Of a stretch of 64,000 bases of DNA, positions 12,001 through 18,000 are shown piece by piece. Numbering within the stretch: position 1 is the stretch's first letter; every line of letters begins with the position of its first letter. Position numbers: made by a program. This DNA is from a virus (lineage: Duplodnaviria > Heunggongvirae > Uroviricota > Caudoviricetes): IMG/VR virus record IMGVR_UViG_2541047712_000002; one strand, given 5' to 3'.

Positions 12001-15000
12001 TTGCTTATAGAGCAATGCTTCGCGCACAATGGCCTCGTTACGTCCCAAATTATACACGATCCCCAACTGATAAGCCTTTTGGTAGGCTGTGCTCATACCT
12101 ACTCTAAAATTAAGGTGTTTGTTGGCAAGTTCCGCCTTGATTCTGACCTCGTCTGGCTTGTAAGCAACTTTATGATAAAGGAAGTACGGTTTTGCCAGAA
12201 TGCCTCGATCAATCAGGTACTTTTCTGTGACTTTAATTTCAATTCGACCGGCCACAGCCATCAGACGCATGTTGGCTTCTGTAGAATCCTTCATGAACGG
12301 CGTGGCCGTAAGCGCCAGACGATAGTCTGCGTTCACACATAATCTGGCAATGTCATAGAAATTAGAGCCTGAAGACTCATGCGCTTCTTCCAGAATAAGC
12401 AGAGACACACTTGAAAGGAAGCGTTTCACCAACTCCCGACGTTTGAGGTGGTAGCTTTTCTTATCTGGTGTTGCATCGCGTGGTGGTTCTTCGAGGAAAC
12501 TTGCAAGAGTTTGAACTGTAGCGACGTTGATATGTCGTGATACCTGGAACTCACCCGAGCCAATGACTCCAACCTTTTGGTCTTTTAACCACGGTTCGCC
12601 ATTTTCGGCGCGGTAGTCGATGGATCTCTGGAAGTTTTCGGCCATTTGAAACATCAGAACAGAGCGGGTTGTTAAAAATAATGTCATTCGACCGATACGT
12701 GCAGCTGCTTTGCAGGCAACGTTAGATTTCCCGCCACCAGTAGCGATCTGCGCAATCATCATTCCCTCTCGAACCAGTGTTTCCACAGTCTGATCCTGAT
12801 ACGCATAATCAGGATTGTATGGGAATGGGTTAACCGCCGGATTTGGTTTACCAAGCGCCGGGGCTTTGTCTTTGCGGATATGAACACATTTGATGCCCGC
12901 CTTGTTCAAGTTCGCCGCTACAGGCTTGGCAAAGCCAGCAGGGAACGAGTTTTTACTCCAGTTGAACATCGTGCTTGTGCCCTTCCAGTCGCCAGTCTCG
13001 ACTTCGTAGCTCAACATTTGCTGCACCAGTTGCTTTACCTTGTCATCTGCGCCAGAAATAAGCGCATTTACTGCGTTAGATACAATCCGAACAGTCATAA
13101 ACCTCTTTCCTTAGTGCCTTTTGTATGTTATTTGGCTATTATAATAAGTAAGTGATTACTTAGTGGATTGTAGCAATAAAATGGATGTAAAAATCACGAT
13201 TTTGCAGGTTGATGTTGCCAACCTTCGCCCGAATACCTGGAACACCAATTCGGTTGGTGCGCAGAATTTTGAAAAACTGAAAGGTTCTATCGAAAAATTG
13301 GGCTTTTTTAAGCCAATTTTGGCTCGTGAACTTGAAGATGGATTTTTTGAAATCCTCGGCGGCGAACATCGCTGGCGTGCTGCTATTGAGCAAGGAATTT
13401 CAACGGTTCCGGTGCTTTCTGTGGGCAAAATTAGCGATGTCGTAGCTAAACAGATGTCACTGGTGGACAACGAGCGATACGGTGAAGACGACCAAATCGC
13501 ATTGCAACGCTTCATTGAAGAAATTCAGTCAGAACTTGACTATCAACTGTCTGAAATCGCCCCGTATGACGACGAAATCTCGATGGTTTTAGCAAAAGAG
13601 GCGGCAATCGACCTTGAAGCACTGGAGGCGTTGTCTCGTGGTAGTGATGAGCCTGTCGATACCGACAAACGAGAGAAAACCGAACGTGTGGGGGCGGAAC
13701 ATCAGACCATGCGCTTCAAAGTAACTTTCGATGCGTCAGATCGCGTTGCAGAAACCATAAAAAACATCATCAAAGAGCAGGCTATTAACACCGGTAATGA
13801 AATGGAGAACGCTGGTGAGGCTCTGGTGTGGCTGGTCGACTACTACAAGGAGCGTATGTAATGACCAAAAAGTTTGAAATCGTATATCGCGACCCGGCAG
13901 ATCTTATTCCCTATGAGATGAATGCCAAAAAGCATGATGAACAGCAGATCCGAGATCTAGCCGCAGCCATTAAAAAGCGCGGATTTGACCAGCCAATTAC
14001 GGTCGATAAGAACGACGTAATTATTACTGGCCACGGCCGCCGTGAGGCTGCAATTTTTGCTGGACTTGAGCGCGTACCGGTTATTGTTCGCGATGATCTC
14101 AGTGATGACGAGGTTCGTGCGAAGCGCCTTGAAGATAACCGACTTGCCAGCATTGATTACGATGCAATTAAGCTACAGAAAGAGCTTGAGTCGCTTGTTC
14201 TGGACGATATCGAGGTTTTCGGCTTTGAAGAGCGTGAGTTGAATGTTCTCGTTGGCAGCATGACAGAAGAAATGGACACCGACTCGCTAGTTATCGATCT
14301 TGGCGAAGAAACTAAACGACAGAAGGATGAACACACCGAGATCAGTCGTGAAGTTGCAGCGGAAGAAGTACGTGTTGTCGACGTATTGGGCTTTAAAACG
14401 CTTCCTGCTGGCTCTGCCATTGTTGTTGGTGATTTGCTTGCCCACATGGAAGAAATGACGGGAGAAAGCGGGGTAGACGCATTTGTGGCATATGCGGAGA
14501 AGATCTCTTCCGGGGAGATGGCTGCATGAGCAAATACATCATCAACGTATCGTTTCAGACACGCGTAAATAAAACCACGCGCACGTTGGAAATCGCTGAG
14601 TCGTTCGGGCTTGGCCTGGACGAAAAAGAGTGGACGCTTTACGACAATCTGGAGCTGGAAGTGAAGCAGGGCGATGTGGTGTACATCACCGGCCAATCCG
14701 GTTCCGGCAAATCCGTTGTGCTGCGCGAGTTGCAACGACAGATGAAGGATGAAGGGCTGTCTGTAGCCTCCATCGATGATTTTACCTTCGATAATGAGGT
14801 TAACGTCATCGATCAGTTGGGCAAAACGACCAGCGATGCGCTTGGGTTGTTATCTATGGCTGGTCTGAACGATGCATATCTGTTTGTTCGCAAGCCTTCT
14901 GAAATGTCAGACGGTCAGAAATATCGTCTCAAGATTGCCAAACTGATTGAGTCAGGCGCTAAAGTGTGGGCTGCTGACGAGTTCGGTGCTGTTCTAGACC

Positions 15001-18000
15001 GTGTAACCGCTCAGGTTGTGGCATCTAACCTCCAGCGTGCCGCTCGAAAGGTTGGTGCAACGGTAATGGTGGCGACGACTCACGAAGACCTGAAGAACGC
15101 GCTGCGCCCGGATATGCAGATCACCAAGCACTACAAAGAACGCGTGAAGGTGGAATATCACAATGGTAGTCATGATGAGGTTCATTTATGACGGACATCA
15201 TCATTAAACGCTACCGCCCTGAAGAGTTTCCGCGTCATCTGGACTTTCTGGAGCGAATGACTGTCACAAAGGGAACTGTAGAGGACTGGTACGCTCTTAA
15301 GTCGCTTCACTACAAAACAGACGGCAAACCTTTCGCGCCAACTTACTATCGCTGCGAACTTGATGACCGTCTGGTGGGCGTCGTGGTTATGGCTTACCCG
15401 AAACTACTGCTGGCACCTCGCCACCGCATGTTTCCTAAGTTGAAACCAACCACTAATACCACCGTGGCTAACCAGTACTGGGGTCGGTACGTGAATAACA
15501 ACTTTGCGGTGATCAGTCGCTCAGTTGTGGATACTCAGTATCGTGGCGTAGGCGTCTCTTATCGAATGATTAACCTGGTTAGCAGGATGCATGACCGGCC
15601 AATCATTGAGATCCAGTCCTCGATGAGCAAATACAATCCCTTCGCCATGAAAGCAGGGTTTAAGTTCATCCGCCCTGAGCGACCGAAGAGCTATGAAAGT
15701 GCACTGCGTGTGTTCCAGCGCCATTTCCGCTCCGACCCGGGTGATAACGAGGCGATCGTCAAAGAGTTGTTCGCTATGAGCGAGTCTCGTCGTCGCCGTG
15801 CGCTGCGCGATTTGGTGGCGGACTACCATAAGAACAGTTCCCTGGCAAAAGCTGGGCGGAATCGTGGCACGACGATTCAGGACATTGCCGACAGTCTGGT
15901 GGACGAGGCCAGCATTGTGAAGCTGCTCAAGGACATTCACAACCTGAGCTTTACGTCTCCGTTGTATGGTGTGTACCGAAACCCTGACTTTGGCCGTCGA
16001 CTGCCTGACACGCTGCCACTGCTGGCATTCGACAAACAACCTTTGGATAAACCGTTAGAAATTGCTTTACCGGCATAAGGATTTGCCATGACGTTAACCG
16101 ACAAACAAAAGGACATCATCAAAACGCTCAATCTCGGTTATGAGCGAGGTCATCTACTTGATCTGGACGAATTGCTTGAAGTTTTGCCGTACAAGACAAC
16201 AAAGCAAAGTATCCAGTTCTCAATTCGCGCTCTGATAAAAAAGGGGCTGGTGGAGAAAGGGCATACGCGCCAACGCAGTGACAATCGCTATCACCGCCGG
16301 ACTCTTGGGTTAACCACTTTAGGTCGAGCCAAAGCGAAGTTACTGGTGATGTAATCGGTCTGGGAGCTTATTTAAAGACCTGCATCTGTATATATAAATA
16401 ATAAGTAACTTATTAAATATATACGGAAGCAGGCTTCGTAAGACATGCCAGACCTAATTAAACACCCCAGAAAACAAGTTGGTTAGCAGATGCAGTAAAC
16501 AAGTTGTTTTAGAGCGCATGGACGCGCTCTGTGTGTTTTAGAGGGATCTATGACGGTCGAAAAAGACGAGGTAAAAACTCGCTTGACACCAGCGGAGTGG
16601 GCCGAAGCTGAAGCCAAATGGACGTCAGGCGAATATACACTCTCAAAGCTGGAGGAAGAGTACGGCATTCGTCGTGAAACACTCTCCAGACATTTCAAAA
16701 AGCGAGGATTAGAGAAAGGCGCGGACTCTGTTGGGAAGATGGTTCGTGAGTCTCTTAAATCTGACGCAGAGCTTCGCGCTAAAGCCCGTGCGGAAAAGAT
16801 AGAAGAACGTCGTACACGTTATGACGGCTGGGCGTATGCGTTGGGGCAGATGGTGATGGTCGAAGTCACTACGGCCAAACGTGAGGGTAAGCCTTTAGGG
16901 GCGATTGAGGATTCTCTCAAGAGCTTACAGAGAGCCAGTAATACCCTTGCAAAATGCTTTGAAGTTTCGTCCAAAGCATTGGGCATGGATCATGCGGAAA
17001 ATGACGAGGAAGAAATTCCGAACCTGGTATTTGGTGAGCTTACGCCTTCCCAGGTGGCGAAATTACGTCAGGAAGACGACGAGCCTGAAATCATCGATGA
17101 CGAATTGCTTGAGACGTTGGAAGAAGAAGCTCTAAGCGAATTTGATGCGACAGATGATGGAAGTGAAGAGGAGGACGAATAATGGCAATCCCGTCCTCGC
17201 TCAGTCTTGTGCAACTGCATTCTGGACAGATGAAAGTCTTCCAGTCTCCGCATCGATTTAAAGTTGTTTGTGCTGGTCGACGCTGGGGAAAATCCCGGTT
17301 GTCGATCTCCACTATTATTCGTGCGGCGGCAAAGGAAAAAAAGCAAAGGGTCTGGTATGTCGCTCCTACTTACCAGATGGCTCGCCAGATTTTGTGGGAC
17401 GATCTACAGGAAGTTCTGCCTCGTAAGTGGGTTAGGAAAAAGAACGACACCACGATGACAATCGTGTTGAAGAACGGTTCGGAGATCGCCCTCAAAGGTG
17501 CTGATAAGCCTGACACTCTGCGCGGCGTAGCGTTGCATTTTGTAGTGCTTGATGAATTTCAGGATATGAAGGCTGACACCTGGTACAAGGTGTTACGACC
17601 TACTCTTTCATCGACACGCGGCGGTGCACTGATCATTGGTACGCCAAAAGGCTTCTCGGAATTTCACAAACTGTGGACTATAGGCCAGAACGTAGAGCTG
17701 CAAAGAAAGGGACAGTGGAAGAGCTGGCAGTTTGTAACTGCCGATTCTCCGTTTGTACCTACGGCGGAAATTGAAGCTGCTAAGAACGATATGGACCCCA
17801 AATCGTTCGCTCAGGAGTACCTGGCCAGCTTTGAGAACATGTCCGGGCGCGTTTACTACCCGTTTGATCGTAACGTGCATGTAAAACCGCTTCAGTTCAA
17901 CCCTCGGTTGCCTATATGGGTAGGGCAGGACTTCAACATTGACCCGATGTCTTCCGTAATTTTGCAACCTCAGCCAAATGGTGAGCTATGGGCAATTGAT

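What the first reader, a model, noticed from the sequence alone, without database searches (positions are those of the whole stretch)
13181..16354. Tightly coupled operon of two ParB-like nuclease-domain proteins, an ABC-type ATPase, a possible acyltransferase-like protein and a small wHTH protein, directly upstream of the terminase genes
All five genes overlap or abut (TAATG, ATGA, ATGA junctions). Two divergent ParB/Srx-fold proteins (GGEHRWRAA and GHGRREAA) with a stand-alone ABC nucleotide-binding domain is not a standard packaging, replication or partition set: the real ParA-type partition genes are elsewhere at 44780-45807. ParB-fold plus ATPase combinations occur in DNA-modification and defence or anti-defence systems, so this may be an uncharacterised DNA-processing or host-takeover system.
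Basis: partly seen in the sequence, partly recalled or inferred. Interest (0 to 1): 0.7.

Follow-up and report, generated by a model that had tools for sequence, protein, structure and literature searches.

The report
ParB-ParB-ABC-GNAT operon beside terminase
A real five-gene operon in an SSU5-type E. coli phage-plasmid (two ParB-like proteins, an ATPase and acyltransferase that are one protein in other viruses, and a small DNA-binding protein) is kept next to the DNA-packaging genes in many bacterial and archaeal viruses, has no known function, and is most likely an ATP-driven enzyme that chemically marks phage DNA or DNA-bound proteins before packaging.

Summary

The set is a core module, not an accessory one. 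All 31 GenBank phages with TerL at least 54% identical carry it, including predicted-virulent and integrated relatives that lack this ParA. Gene order is fixed: helicase(-) | ParB | ParB | ABC | GNAT | small | TerS | TerL. ABC-GNAT genes also lie beside ParB and/or terminase genes in unrelated archaeal, planctomycete and actinobacteriophage lineages.

It is not a partition system, a transporter or a known defence system.

Best reading (about 0.4): a lytic-cycle, ParB-assisted, ATP-dependent acyltransferase acting on phage DNA or DNA-bound protein before packaging. Substrate and donor are unknown and nothing was tested experimentally. Interest is moderate to high; I class it as a new variant of ParB-assisted DNA-modifying systems.

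The parts
11539..13098 (-). Divergently transcribed SF2 (UvsW/DEAD-like) helicase, the conserved syntenic partner of the operon
   Evidence: Pfam ResIII/DEAD/Helicase_C; phrog_16. It sits on the opposite strand immediately upstream of ParB1 in the 26 of 28 diverged loci that extend far enough. Annotated as UvsW helicase in phage Cyrano.
13099..13180 (.). 82-bp AT-rich divergent intergenic region between the helicase and P1, the presumed shared promoter region
   Evidence: Sequence read. It holds the direct repeat TTcCTTAGTG / TTaCTTAGTG, 49 bp apart. No consensus sigma-70 site was scored inside it.
13181..13861 (+). P1: ParB/Srx-fold protein, 226 aa, Box II GGEHRWRAA, no HTH_ParB domain, pI 4.55
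   Evidence: ParB_N 3.2e-13; phrog_723 1e-78; Spo0J 1vz0 2.7e-9. TIGR00180 scores 43.2, below the 58.45 cutoff. Family-conserved motifs PNPWNTN, FKPI.VR, GGEHR, DN.RYG.DD, MRFKV and NAGDALV. Charge -18.
13861..14529 (+). P2: paralogous ParB/Srx-fold protein, 222 aa, Box II GHGRREAA, nearest to the ParB domain of phage ParB-methyltransferase fusions, pI 4.53
   Evidence: ParB_N 1.3e-8; phrog_930 1e-112. N-terminal matches to phrog_498 'DNA methyltransferase' 1.2e-31 and to the PADLOC MTase_II model 2.8e-17. Full-length paralogy with P1: hhalign probability 99.2%, E 1.8e-19, 206 columns. True ATG at 13861.
14526..15191 (+). P3: stand-alone ABC-type ATPase domain, 221 aa; the N-terminal half of the split ABC-GNAT enzyme
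   Evidence: ABC_tran 5.8e-13; phrog_293 6e-59. It also matches positions 2-185 of the fused family phrog_11143. Motifs GQSGSGKS, MSDGQ, VWAADEFG and TTHED, all conserved in 27 orthologs. Colinear with the N-terminal half of fused proteins, including the FGLG(L/I)DE motif. Median 56% identity across the clade. No permease gene nearby.
15188..16078 (+). P4: GNAT-fold acyltransferase domain (about aa 20-165) plus a family-specific helical C-terminal domain (aa 169-296), pI 9.8; the C-terminal half of the split ABC-GNAT enzyme
16088..16354 (+). P5: small basic protein, 88 aa, pI 10.2; probable winged-helix DNA binder
   Evidence: phrog_900 1.9e-45. Weak wHTH-type hits only. Detected at the same position in 18 of 28 diverged loci.
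16355..16549 (.). Intergenic region between the operon and TerS. It holds a 55-bp AT-rich imperfect palindrome (16379-16433), direct repeats CAGnAAACAAGTTGnTT (16468-16509), and a GC hairpin plus T-run (16510-16531) flanked by TGTTTTAGAG x2. Candidate operon terminator, late promoter or packaging-site region.
   Evidence: A gap of 128-618 bp at this position is usual in relatives (21 of the 27 relatives scored), but the palindrome sequence itself is not conserved.
16550..17182 (+). TerS-like DNA-binding protein (context)
   Evidence: phrog_867 2.6e-100. Annotated as terminase small subunit in Cyrano. TAATG junction with TerL.
17182..18438 (+). Terminase large subunit (context)
   Evidence: Terminase_6N 3.1e-9, Terminase_6C; phrog_2 and phrog_10250.

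Best explanation
The operon encodes a lytic-cycle nucleoprotein-modifying machine. Its catalytic core is an ATP-dependent acyltransferase, here split into an ABC-ATPase subunit (P3) and a GNAT subunit (P4).

Proposed mechanism (inferred):
1. The ABC domains dimerise on ATP. They supply the work needed to engage double-stranded DNA, or a DNA-bound target, and present it to the GNAT active site. This mirrors the helicase-type ATPase module of the RNA cytidine acetyltransferases TmcA/NAT10.
2. The two acidic ParB-fold paralogs (P1, P2), probably as a hetero-oligomer, act as NTP-binding activators or clamps for the enzyme on duplex DNA. Phage ParB176 does this for its T-dioxygenase.
3. The small basic protein P5 supplies DNA binding or controls the adjacent late operon.
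4. The module acts on replicated phage DNA at the transition to packaging, so that virion DNA, or a protein on it, is acylated before encapsidation.

Shown here: the folds, the motifs, the split/fused relationship, the paralogy of P1 and P2, core conservation, and recurrent linkage to ParB and terminase genes. Also shown are absence from the list of lysogeny-expressed genes and independence from ParA.

Inferred only: complex formation, DNA as the target, timing, the acyl donor (acyl-CoA or aminoacyl-tRNA) and the biological benefit (protection from restriction, or control of packaging).
For: (1) P3 and P4 are colinear with single proteins of about 360-560 aa, which indicates a shared function.

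(2) P4 has a GNAT fold and keeps the cofactor-binding motif and invariant residues in both split and fused forms. P4 is strongly basic (+15) and P5 is +9, which fits nucleic-acid binding. P1 and P2 are -18 and -22 and lack a DNA-binding domain. [quoted passage not shown]

(3) A ParB_N gene lies next to ABC-GNAT in at least five separate lineages:
- the SSU5 supergroup;
- actinobacteriophages Jace and EastWest;
- a Thaumarchaeota MAG;
- a planctomycete prophage;
- archaeon HR01.
ParB-acetyltransferase fusion proteins also exist (bioRxiv 2025.10.10.680097).

(4) P2's ParB domain is closest to that of phage ParB-DNA-methyltransferase fusions. The same partner domain is thus paired with a known DNA-modifying enzyme.

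(5) ABC-GNAT lies within two genes of TerL in several settings:
- the SSU5 supergroup;
- 26 of 52 (31 counting near neighbours) loci of unrelated small tailed viruses whose closest genome matches are Bathyarchaeota/Thaumarchaeota MAGs;
- planctomycete prophages, two of which carry a different TerL family, PF03354.
This fits late expression or coupling to packaging, as with Mom.

(6) It is a core gene set: 31 of 31 phages in the TerL clade have it, and ABC identity (56%) is close to TerL (58%).

(7) In Jace the pair is followed by aspartate decarboxylase and a CoA-transferase fragment, a possible route to an unusual acyl donor.

(8) Precedents exist for GNATs acting on DNA: Mom on dsDNA with Gly-tRNA (PMC13219725) and PaMx11 gp48 (PMC8989533).

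(9) The operon genes CYRAN_119-123 are not among the genes expressed in the Cyrano lysogen (PMC9928086, Table).
Against: - No direct evidence exists that SSU5-like, nickie-like or Jace-like virion DNA carries an acyl modification.
- The C-terminal domain of P4 gave no clue.
- The closest TerL relatives outside the clade (at most 45% identity, 30-60 kb phages) lack the P4-type GNAT protein at E<=1e-3. It is therefore not needed by this terminase type as such.
- Gene adjacency to terminase may reflect only shared timing.
- P1 and P2 deviate from the canonical CTP-binding motifs (R to H in P1; E to H and R to G in P2). NTP binding is untested.
- Temporal class is inferred from position and from one lysogen transcriptome table, not from an induction time course.
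Confidence: 0.4

Rival explanations
1. Packaging accessory or regulator with a protein target. The module works with TerS/TerL, for example to control when or where terminase cuts. The ParB-like proteins would mark or prepare the packaging-site region. The ABC-GNAT would acetylate terminase, portal or a nucleoid protein such as HU or Alba.
For: ABC-GNAT lies beside TerL in several unrelated virus lineages, including two TerL families. The operon ends at a structured intergenic region just upstream of TerS. It has core-gene conservation similar to TerL. Most characterised GNATs acetylate proteins (established knowledge).
Against: The nearest TerL relatives package DNA without a P4-type GNAT. 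About 40% of group B loci show no TerL within the stretch fetched. In Jace the pair sits among recombination genes, 3 kb from TerS. No similarity was found to HNH, gpNu1/TerS or other known accessory factors. The P1/P2 proteins are acidic with no DNA-binding domain.
Confidence: 0.2
2. Host-takeover or anti-defence enzyme. The GNAT would acetylate a host protein, a small molecule or a signalling nucleotide. The ParB-fold proteins would act as NTPases or nucleases that deplete nucleotides or attack host DNA.
For: ParB/Srx proteins with nuclease or NTPase activity occur in conflict systems (PMC10853773, citing Maindola et al. 2014). PHROGs files P3 and P4 under 'moron, auxiliary metabolic gene and host takeover'.
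Against: There are no PADLOC matches apart from the ParB-like N-terminus of a methyltransferase model and generic P-loop hits. The set is universal and strongly conserved within its clade, with fixed gene order; counter-defence genes are usually patchy and fast-evolving. The PHROG category derives from the 'ABC transporter' name, not from a test.
Confidence: 0.12
3. RNA (tRNA) acyltransferase. An ATPase-plus-GNAT enzyme would modify phage or host tRNA, like TmcA, or use or alter aminoacyl-tRNA.
For: TmcA/NAT10 are ATP-dependent ATPase-plus-GNAT enzymes (cited in PMC8989533 and PMC13219725). These phages carry tRNA genes and a MetRS. GNAT toxins and Mom handle aminoacyl-tRNA (PMC13219725).
Confidence: 0.06
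4. Late-gene transcription switch. P5, helped by ParB-like sliding clamps and an ATPase loader, would activate the structural operon that starts 200 bp downstream. This would resemble KorB-KorA, or T4 clamp-dependent late transcription.
For: The position directly upstream of the late operon and of a structured intergenic region. ParB-family clamps regulating transcription are known (KorB-KorA, as discussed in PMC13229309). P5 looks like a small basic wHTH protein.
Against: This does not explain a conserved GNAT active site or the ABC-GNAT fusion. P5 is the least constant member (18 of 28 loci). The fused-form loci examined showed no P5 homolog. P1 and P2 lack DNA-binding domains.
Confidence: 0.07
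5. Plasmid partition. The two ParB proteins would segregate the phage-plasmid, as assumed for the related Acinetobacter AB phage-plasmid group.
For: The database names say 'ParB-like partition protein'. Pfeifer et al. 2021 listed the duplicated ParB genes under partition (PMC7969092).
Against: - A complete ParA plus small-partner cassette lies elsewhere.
- That ParA was not found among the Nickievirus, Rhizobium, Stenotrophomonas or Xanthomonas relatives (listed rows and genus tally; full list not inspected), which all keep the operon.
- Nickievirus is predicted virulent (PMC11256456).
- A relative is integrated in a 4.2-Mb Halomonas chromosome.
- Both proteins fall below the TIGR00180 cutoff and lack HTH_ParB.
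- The operon is not among the genes expressed in the lysogen (PMC9928086).
Confidence: 0.02

Closest known systems
ParB-dependent phage thymine dioxygenases (5mYOX clade E with cognate ParB; PMC13229309)
   Same: [quoted passage not shown] It is required for activity on double-stranded DNA.
   Different: The enzyme here is an ABC-ATPase plus GNAT, not an Fe/2OG dioxygenase. There are two paralogous ParBs instead of one. No activity has been measured.
Phage ParB-DNA methyltransferase fusions (phrog_498; PADLOC MTase_II PDLC03229; bioRxiv 2025.10.10.680097)
   Same: P2's ParB domain is most similar to the ParB domain of these fusions (1.2e-31 and 2.8e-17). Both are phage-enriched.
   Different: No methyltransferase domain is present. 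The ParB domain is a separate protein, and the partner enzyme is an acyltransferase with its own ATPase.
COG2401 / MK0520-type 'ABC-type ATPase fused to a predicted acetyltransferase domain' (uncharacterised)
   Same: P3 plus P4 are colinear with such fused proteins and share their conserved motifs. JGI and the Cyrano annotators use this name for P4 homologs.
   Different: The protein is split into two translationally coupled genes here. P4 carries an extra 130-aa C-terminal domain with no match. The family has no experimentally known function. I could not scan the COG model itself.
Phage Mu Mom (GNAT that modifies adenine in dsDNA using Gly-tRNA; PMC13219725, PMC7261163)
   Different: No sequence-profile relationship (hhalign probability 0.2%). 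Mom works alone, without an ATPase or ParB.
TmcA / NAT10 ATP-dependent RNA cytidine acetyltransferases
   Same: An ATPase module coupled to a GNAT that acylates a nucleobase in a structured nucleic acid.
   Different: The ATPase is helicase-type, not ABC. The substrate is RNA. There is no ParB partner. No specific structural similarity was seen.
Canonical ParABS partition systems
   Same: The ParB N-terminal fold, with Box I/II/III-like motifs.
   Different: No HTH_ParB domain, no adjacent ParA, below the family cutoff, acidic, present in virulent and integrated phages, and not among the genes reported as expressed in the plasmid state.

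Membership tests
ParB/Srx superfamily (Pfam ParB_N PF02195) | Sequence match above the Pfam gathering score | tested here: met
   P1 50.0 bits and P2 35.2 bits against a cutoff of 26.3. Both also match solved Spo0J/ParB/Noc structures.
ParB/Srx superfamily (Pfam ParB_N PF02195) | Box II arginine motif GxxRxxA | tested here: met
   P1 GGEHRWRAA and P2 GHGRREAA align to GERRYRAA of Spo0J. One arginine is kept in each and the others are substituted. GGEHR and GHGRR are conserved in 26 and 28 orthologs. 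NTP binding itself was not testable.
Canonical partition ParB (TIGR00180 parB_part) | Score above the curated cutoff | tested here: not met
   43.2 and 43.1 bits against a cutoff of 58.45.
Canonical partition ParB (TIGR00180 parB_part) | Central HTH DNA-binding domain (HTH_ParB PF17762) | tested here: not met
   No HTH_ParB hit in P1 or P2. The same scan does find it in a ParB of locus L033.
Canonical partition ParB (TIGR00180 parB_part) | Adjacent parA gene and co-distribution with it | tested here: not met
   The neighbours are a helicase and an ABC ATPase. ParA lies 31 kb away with its own small partner. It was not found among the Pseudomonas, Rhizobium, Stenotrophomonas or Xanthomonas relatives (genus tally and listed rows; 105 records unlisted) that keep the operon.
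ABC ATPase (Pfam ABC_tran PF00005) | Match above the gathering score, with Walker A, signature, Walker B and H-loop motifs | tested here: met
   50.1 bits against 25. Motifs GQSGSGKS, SDGQ, AADEFG and TTHED are conserved in 27 orthologs.
ABC transporter | Associated membrane permease or substrate-binding component | tested here: not met
   No membrane-protein gene in or beside the operon, here or in relatives. All NCBIfam transporter equivalogs score far below their cutoffs.
GNAT acyltransferase superfamily | GNAT fold | tested here: met
GNAT acyltransferase superfamily | Sequence match to Pfam GNAT models above threshold | tested here: inconclusive
   P4 itself scores 14.4 bits against 23.6 for Acetyltransf_10. 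The GNAT part of the fused relative Jace gp86 passes Acetyltransf_1 (35.9 against 20.7), as does fused homolog P0238.
GNAT acyltransferase superfamily | Cofactor-binding motif A (Q/R-x-x-G-x-G/A) | tested here: met
   Y-R119-G-V-G122-V-S; R119 and G122 are invariant in 36 homologs, and an R/G pair in the same motif is invariant in the fused family. Catalysis itself was not testable.
COG2401/MK0520-like ABC-ATPase-GNAT fusion family | Colinear homology of ATPase and GNAT parts to single fused proteins | tested here: met
   Profile hits of P4 at positions of about 200-480 in 440-560-aa proteins whose N-termini are ABC_tran. Fused proteins match phrog_293 and then phrog_886 in order. phmmer with P3 and P4 hits the same ORF in about 50 loci. 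The COG profile itself was not available.
Mom-like DNA-modifying GNATs | Sequence-profile homology to Mu Mom | tested here: not met
   hhalign probability 0.2%, with only 19 columns at motif A.
Winged-helix DNA-binding proteins (P5) | Significant match to a wHTH family or structure | tested here: inconclusive
   Only sub-threshold hits: LexA_DNA_bind 13.3 against 23.7; Sta1 17.9 against 80; CARF3 C-terminus E 4.5e-5; PDB E 0.15. No structure was predicted.
Known anti-phage defence or candidate systems (PADLOC-DB) | Match of the components to a defined system | tested here: not met
   Only the ParB-like N-terminus of an MTase model and generic P-loop hits. P4 has none.
Known terminase accessory proteins (TerS, HNH) | Homology of any operon protein to them | tested here: not met
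   No such Pfam, PHROG or NCBIfam hit above noise. P3's hits to terminase PHROGs (E 0.002-0.007) are P-loop only.

The most novel reading that the evidence does not exclude
A widespread, previously unrecognised DNA acylation system of tailed viruses of bacteria and archaea. An ABC-ATPase-GNAT enzyme, switched on by dedicated ParB-fold proteins, would write a new acyl mark on virion DNA just before packaging. The mark could be an N-acetyl or aminoacyl base, with a beta-alanine-derived donor in Jace-like phages. If so, SSU5-type phage-plasmids would carry a hidden epigenetic or anti-restriction mark only in their virion form. This group includes the matching Yersinia and Salmonella plasmids, which I take from memory to be the pMT1 and pHCM2 types.
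Probability: 0.25. Interest if true: 0.85.

Novelty: new variant of a known kind. Interest (0 to 1): 0.62.

Why it matters
These five genes are carried by about 790 sequenced enterobacterial plasmids (Klebsiella, Escherichia, Yersinia, Salmonella and others) and by whole genera of virulent phages. They are still annotated as 'partition proteins' and 'ABC transporters'.

Showing that they form one conserved ParB-ABC-GNAT unit tied to the packaging genes has three consequences:
- It corrects those annotations.
- It extends the recently found role of ParB-fold proteins as partners of DNA-modifying enzymes to an acyltransferase with its own ATPase motor.
- It gives a directly testable route to a possible new DNA or nucleoprotein modification shared by bacterial and archaeal viruses.

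If the target is instead the packaging machinery, this would be a new regulatory layer of terminase function.

Tried and rejected
- **Mom membership.** The profile comparison was negative. The structural similarity is no better than to any GNAT.
- **BFVD Foldseek with P4.** Only generic GNAT hits. The afdb50 library was not available.
- **RHH fold in the C-termini of P1 and P2.** The beta-helix-helix pattern (MRFKV / LGFK) suggested it. Pfam gave no hit at E up to 10 and these segments are acidic (pI 4.3-4.9), so I dropped it as a claim.
- **SSU5 and Cyrano record ends at window ~16415 as physical genome termini.** Rejected. Cyrano, SSU5 and Nican01 records open at or just before a terminase gene, which looks like a deposit convention rather than a mapped end.
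- **Conservation of the 55-bp palindrome in relatives.** Not conserved in sequence.
- **PADLOC.** No system matched.
- **Rfam.** Nothing in 12900-17300.
- **Antisense ORFs.** No phage family matched.
- **Literature.** Searches for COG2401, for 'ATPase fused to a ... acetyltransferase domain', and for SSU5 + ParB + terminase found no functional study. The ABC-ATPase classification paper (Krishnan et al. 2020) is not held, so I could not check it for this family.

Full report
**What the window is.** The region 13000-18500 is 98-99.6% identical to Escherichia phages Cyrano, CMS-2020a and PhiR41_1. It matches 793 PLSDB plasmid records from Klebsiella, Escherichia, Enterobacter, Yersinia, Salmonella and others, and is 85% identical to Salmonella phage SSU5. 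The window is therefore an SSU5-type phage-plasmid of E. coli. Cyrano's annotation shows a siphovirus of about 108 kb with T4-like replication and recombination genes, a ParA cassette, toxin-antitoxin pairs and tRNAs.

**Check of the observation.**
- All five ORFs are present on the + strand.
The true start of P2 is the ATG at 13861.
- Each protein falls in a well-populated phage family, with PHROG E-values from 2e-45 to 1e-163.
- P1 and P2 pass Pfam ParB_N. P3 passes ABC_tran and carries every ABC motif.
- Antisense ORFs match nothing and no RNA family is present.
- TerS-like, TerL and portal genes follow.
- The separate ParA (44780-45448) with a small downstream partner (45448-45807) is real.

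**The two ParB-like proteins.**
- They resemble Spo0J/ParB/Noc N-terminal domains. They score below the curated partition-ParB cutoff (43 bits against 58.45) and lack the HTH_ParB domain.
- Box II is GGEHRWRAA in P1 and GHGRREAA in P2, so one arginine of GERR is kept in each. The clade-wide conserved forms are GGEHR and GHGRR.
- They are paralogs over their whole length (hhalign probability 99.2%, E 1.8e-19). Each forms its own orthologous lineage across the clade, which suggests they work as a pair.
- Both are strongly acidic (pI 4.5, net charge -18 and -22).
- P2's ParB domain is closest to the ParB domain of phage ParB-methyltransferase fusions (phrog_498 1.2e-31; PADLOC MTase_II 2.8e-17).

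**The ATPase and the acyltransferase are one enzyme, split.**
- It keeps the cofactor motif YRGVGVS.
- A profile search of 1.84 billion representative proteins found 874 relatives. Many of these, 440-560 aa long, carry the P4-like part at positions of about 200-480 behind an N-terminal ABC_tran domain.
- An alignment of 25 such fused proteins shares the N-terminal FGLG(L/I)DE motif and the ABC motifs with P3. With P4 it shares the invariant HY and the R...G...E residues; the C-terminal tyrosine is invariant within a looser Y.IW.NP consensus (P4: YGVYRNP).
- Fused proteins hit phrog_293 (P3's family) and then phrog_886 (P4's family) in order.
- JGI and the Cyrano annotators already call P4 homologs 'ABC-type ATPase with/fused to a predicted acetyltransferase domain'.
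- P4 also has a 130-aa helical C-terminal domain with no structural neighbour.
- P4 and P5 are strongly basic (pI 9.8 and 10.2).

**A core module, not an accessory one.**
- tblastn with P4 finds 31 GenBank phage records.
- tblastn with TerL finds exactly the same 31 records at 54% identity or more. The next TerL relatives (at most 45% identity, phages of 30-60 kb) do not appear in the P4 search.
- These are phages of 103-122 kb (one 84-kb record), infecting Escherichia, Salmonella, Klebsiella, Pseudomonas (Nickievirus), Rhizobium, Stenotrophomonas and Xanthomonas.
- In these records and in IMG/VR contigs (28 diverged loci) the gene order is constant. It runs helicase(-), ParB1, ParB2, ABC, GNAT and a small protein, then a 128-618 bp gap in most loci (21 of the 27 scored), then TerS, TerL and portal. 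Occasional small insertions occur.
- Median identity to the window proteins is ABC 56%, TerL 58%, portal 51%, helicase 43%, GNAT 41%, ParB2 40%, ParB1 38% and TerS 30%.

**Not partition.**
- The window's ParA is found in the enteric phage-plasmids and was not seen among the Pseudomonas, Rhizobium, Stenotrophomonas or Xanthomonas relatives (genus tally and listed rows; 105 of 145 records were not listed).
- Nickievirus Nican01 is predicted virulent (PMC11256456).
- A relative with the same gene order lies in the 4.2-Mb Halomonas sulfidaeris chromosome.
- In the Cyrano lysogen, the published table of prophage genes expressed at least 5-fold above local background lists CYRAN_117 but none of CYRAN_119-123 (PMC9928086).
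- Earlier work listed the duplicated ParB genes of the related Acinetobacter AB phage-plasmid group under partition (PMC7969092). The data here argue against that reading.

**Recurrence in unrelated viruses.**
- The fused ABC-GNAT gene occurs in 52 IMG/VR loci of small tailed viruses. Their closest genome matches are Bathyarchaeota and Thaumarchaeota MAGs.
- In 26 of those loci it directly follows TerL (Terminase_6N). In five more it lies one or two genes away.
- In one Thaumarchaeota contig the order is ABC-GNAT, ParB_N, a 156-aa ORF, TerL.
- In a Planctomycetaceae contig the order is ParB_N, then an ABC ORF of this family (no GNAT part detected), then, after two small ORFs, a TerL of a different family (PF03354).
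- In Gemmata the order is TerL, an 81-aa ORF, ABC-GNAT. In archaeon HR01 a ParB_N gene lies two small ORFs away.
- In actinobacteriophages Jace and EastWest, a 182-184-aa ParB_N protein is immediately followed by a 364-372-aa ABC-GNAT protein; in Jace its GNAT part passes Pfam thresholds (in EastWest it falls just below).
- In Jace the next genes are aspartate decarboxylase (2e-33) and a CoA-transferase III fragment. TerS lies 3 kb further on.
- ParB plus ABC-GNAT is therefore a recurrent unit, and it tends to lie at the packaging end of virus genomes.

**How it most likely works.** Four published findings frame the inference.
- Phage ParB-like proteins that keep the nucleotide-binding and C-terminal domains but lack a DNA-binding domain are obligate activators of a subclass of phage thymine dioxygenases. 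They are needed specifically on double-stranded DNA, and those gene clusters often include terminases (PMC13229309; bioRxiv 2025.08.14.668559).
- In phages the ParB fold is most often fused to DNA methyltransferases. A bacterial ParB-acetyltransferase fusion exists and binds GTP (bioRxiv 2025.10.10.680097).
- GNAT enzymes can modify DNA. Mom acts on dsDNA using Gly-tRNA and is expressed late (PMC13219725). PaMx11 gp48 acetylates 5-aminomethyl-dU in DNA (PMC8989533).
- TmcA/NAT10 couple an ATPase to a GNAT to acetylate cytidine in RNA (cited in those papers).

By analogy, I propose the following. P3/P4 is an ATP-dependent acyltransferase that acts on duplex phage DNA or on a DNA-bound protein. 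The acidic P1/P2 pair activates or clamps it. P5 provides DNA binding or late-operon control. The module acts between replication/recombination (the divergent UvsW-like helicase) and packaging.

The folds, motifs, split/fused relation, paralogy, conservation and gene linkage are shown. Complex formation, substrate, donor, timing and benefit are inferred. I put this at about 0.4. Within that, a true base modification is about 0.25.

**Rivals.**
- Packaging accessory acting on proteins, about 0.2. The terminase linkage supports it. Against it: close TerL relatives lack a P4-type GNAT, and there is no homology to known accessory factors.
- Host takeover or anti-defence, about 0.12. Core conservation and the lack of PADLOC matches argue against it.
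- Late-transcription switch, about 0.07.
- tRNA acylation, about 0.06.
- Partition, about 0.02.

**The intergenic region 16355-16549.** It contains a 55-bp AT-rich imperfect palindrome, two 17-nt direct repeats 25 bp apart, and a GC hairpin with a T-run just before the TerS start. This suggests a transcription boundary and a regulatory or packaging site. The sequence is not conserved in distant relatives. The database record ends that fall here appear to be a deposit convention (records opened at the terminase genes), not mapped ends.

**Novelty and verdict.** The genes have been in databases since SSU5 was sequenced and are annotated as ParB-like and 'ABC transporter' proteins. I found no functional study. 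One relevant classification paper could not be read.

New here:
- the recognition that P3 and P4 are a split ABC-GNAT enzyme;
- that P1 and P2 are a dedicated paralog pair;
- that the set is a clade-defining core module;
- that ParB plus ABC-GNAT recurs next to terminase genes in bacterial and archaeal viruses.

I class it as a new variant of a known kind, namely ParB-assisted nucleic-acid-modifying systems. Its biochemical activity is still unknown. Interest 0.62.

Noticed in passing
window 16379-16433 (also 16468-16509 and 16505-16543): A 55-bp AT-rich imperfect palindrome (CCTGCATCTGTATATATAAATAATAAGT A ACTTATTAAATATATACGGAAGCAGG) lies between the operon and TerS. After it come two 17-nt direct repeats 25 bp apart and a GC hairpin flanked by TGTTTTAGAG x2. 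It could be a late promoter or operator, a terminator, or a packaging site. The sequence is not conserved in distant relatives.
   Followed up: partly
window 44780-45807: A small ParA ATPase (222 aa) is followed, with a 1-nt overlap, by a 119-aa protein. By eye its C-terminal half looks like a ribbon-helix-helix centromere binder, but Pfam gives no hit. Cyrano annotates this second gene as a 'RelE/ParE putative toxin', which is probably wrong.
   Followed up: partly
window 43663-44500 (- strand): A GNAT-type toxin (173 aa; the matching Cyrano gene is annotated KacT) lies with its upstream 102-aa antitoxin. Both genes are reported as expressed in the lysogen (PMC9928086). This GNAT is unrelated to P4.
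   Followed up: no
window 11258-11536 (- strand): A 92-aa ORF lies just downstream of the helicase on the same strand. Its Cyrano counterpart CYRAN_117 is reported as expressed 12-fold above background in the lysogen, unlike the neighbouring operon.
   Followed up: no
L111 (Rhodococcus/Gordonia phage Jace NC_047974.1) 5947-8712: ParB_N (gp85), ABC-GNAT (gp86), aspartate decarboxylase PanD (gp87, Pfam 2e-33) and a CoA-transferase family III fragment (gp88) lie in a row. This is a possible pathway to a beta-alanine-derived acyl donor for the GNAT.
   Followed up: partly
proteins P0166, P0177, P0206, P0154: Some distant ABC-GNAT homologs carry an intein with a LAGLIDADG endonuclease inside the ATPase. 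Others are fused behind a family B DNA polymerase or ahead of a TFIIB repeat. These could be real fusions or gene-calling run-throughs. The TFIIB repeat would fit an archaeal origin.
   Followed up: no
L081 8918-11764; L002 4168-4329 and 5646-5981; L003 4336-4755 and 5393-5895: Relatives tolerate insertions inside the operon: about 3 kb between the ABC and GNAT genes in one IMG/VR contig, and small ORFs including a DUF2829 protein in Nickievirus and Rhizobium phages. The tight translational coupling seen in the window is therefore not universal.
   Followed up: no
window 8001-12000 and 56001-64000: G+C falls to 0.33-0.40 in these stretches, against about 0.45-0.51 in the operon and structural genes. 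That suggests more recently acquired or accessory regions.
   Followed up: no
Cyrano OV696614.1 74621-75265 (outside the window): SSU5-type genomes carry a second stand-alone 'ABC transporter ATP-binding protein' gene, next to the dihydrofolate reductase gene. I did not examine whether it is related to P3.
   Followed up: no
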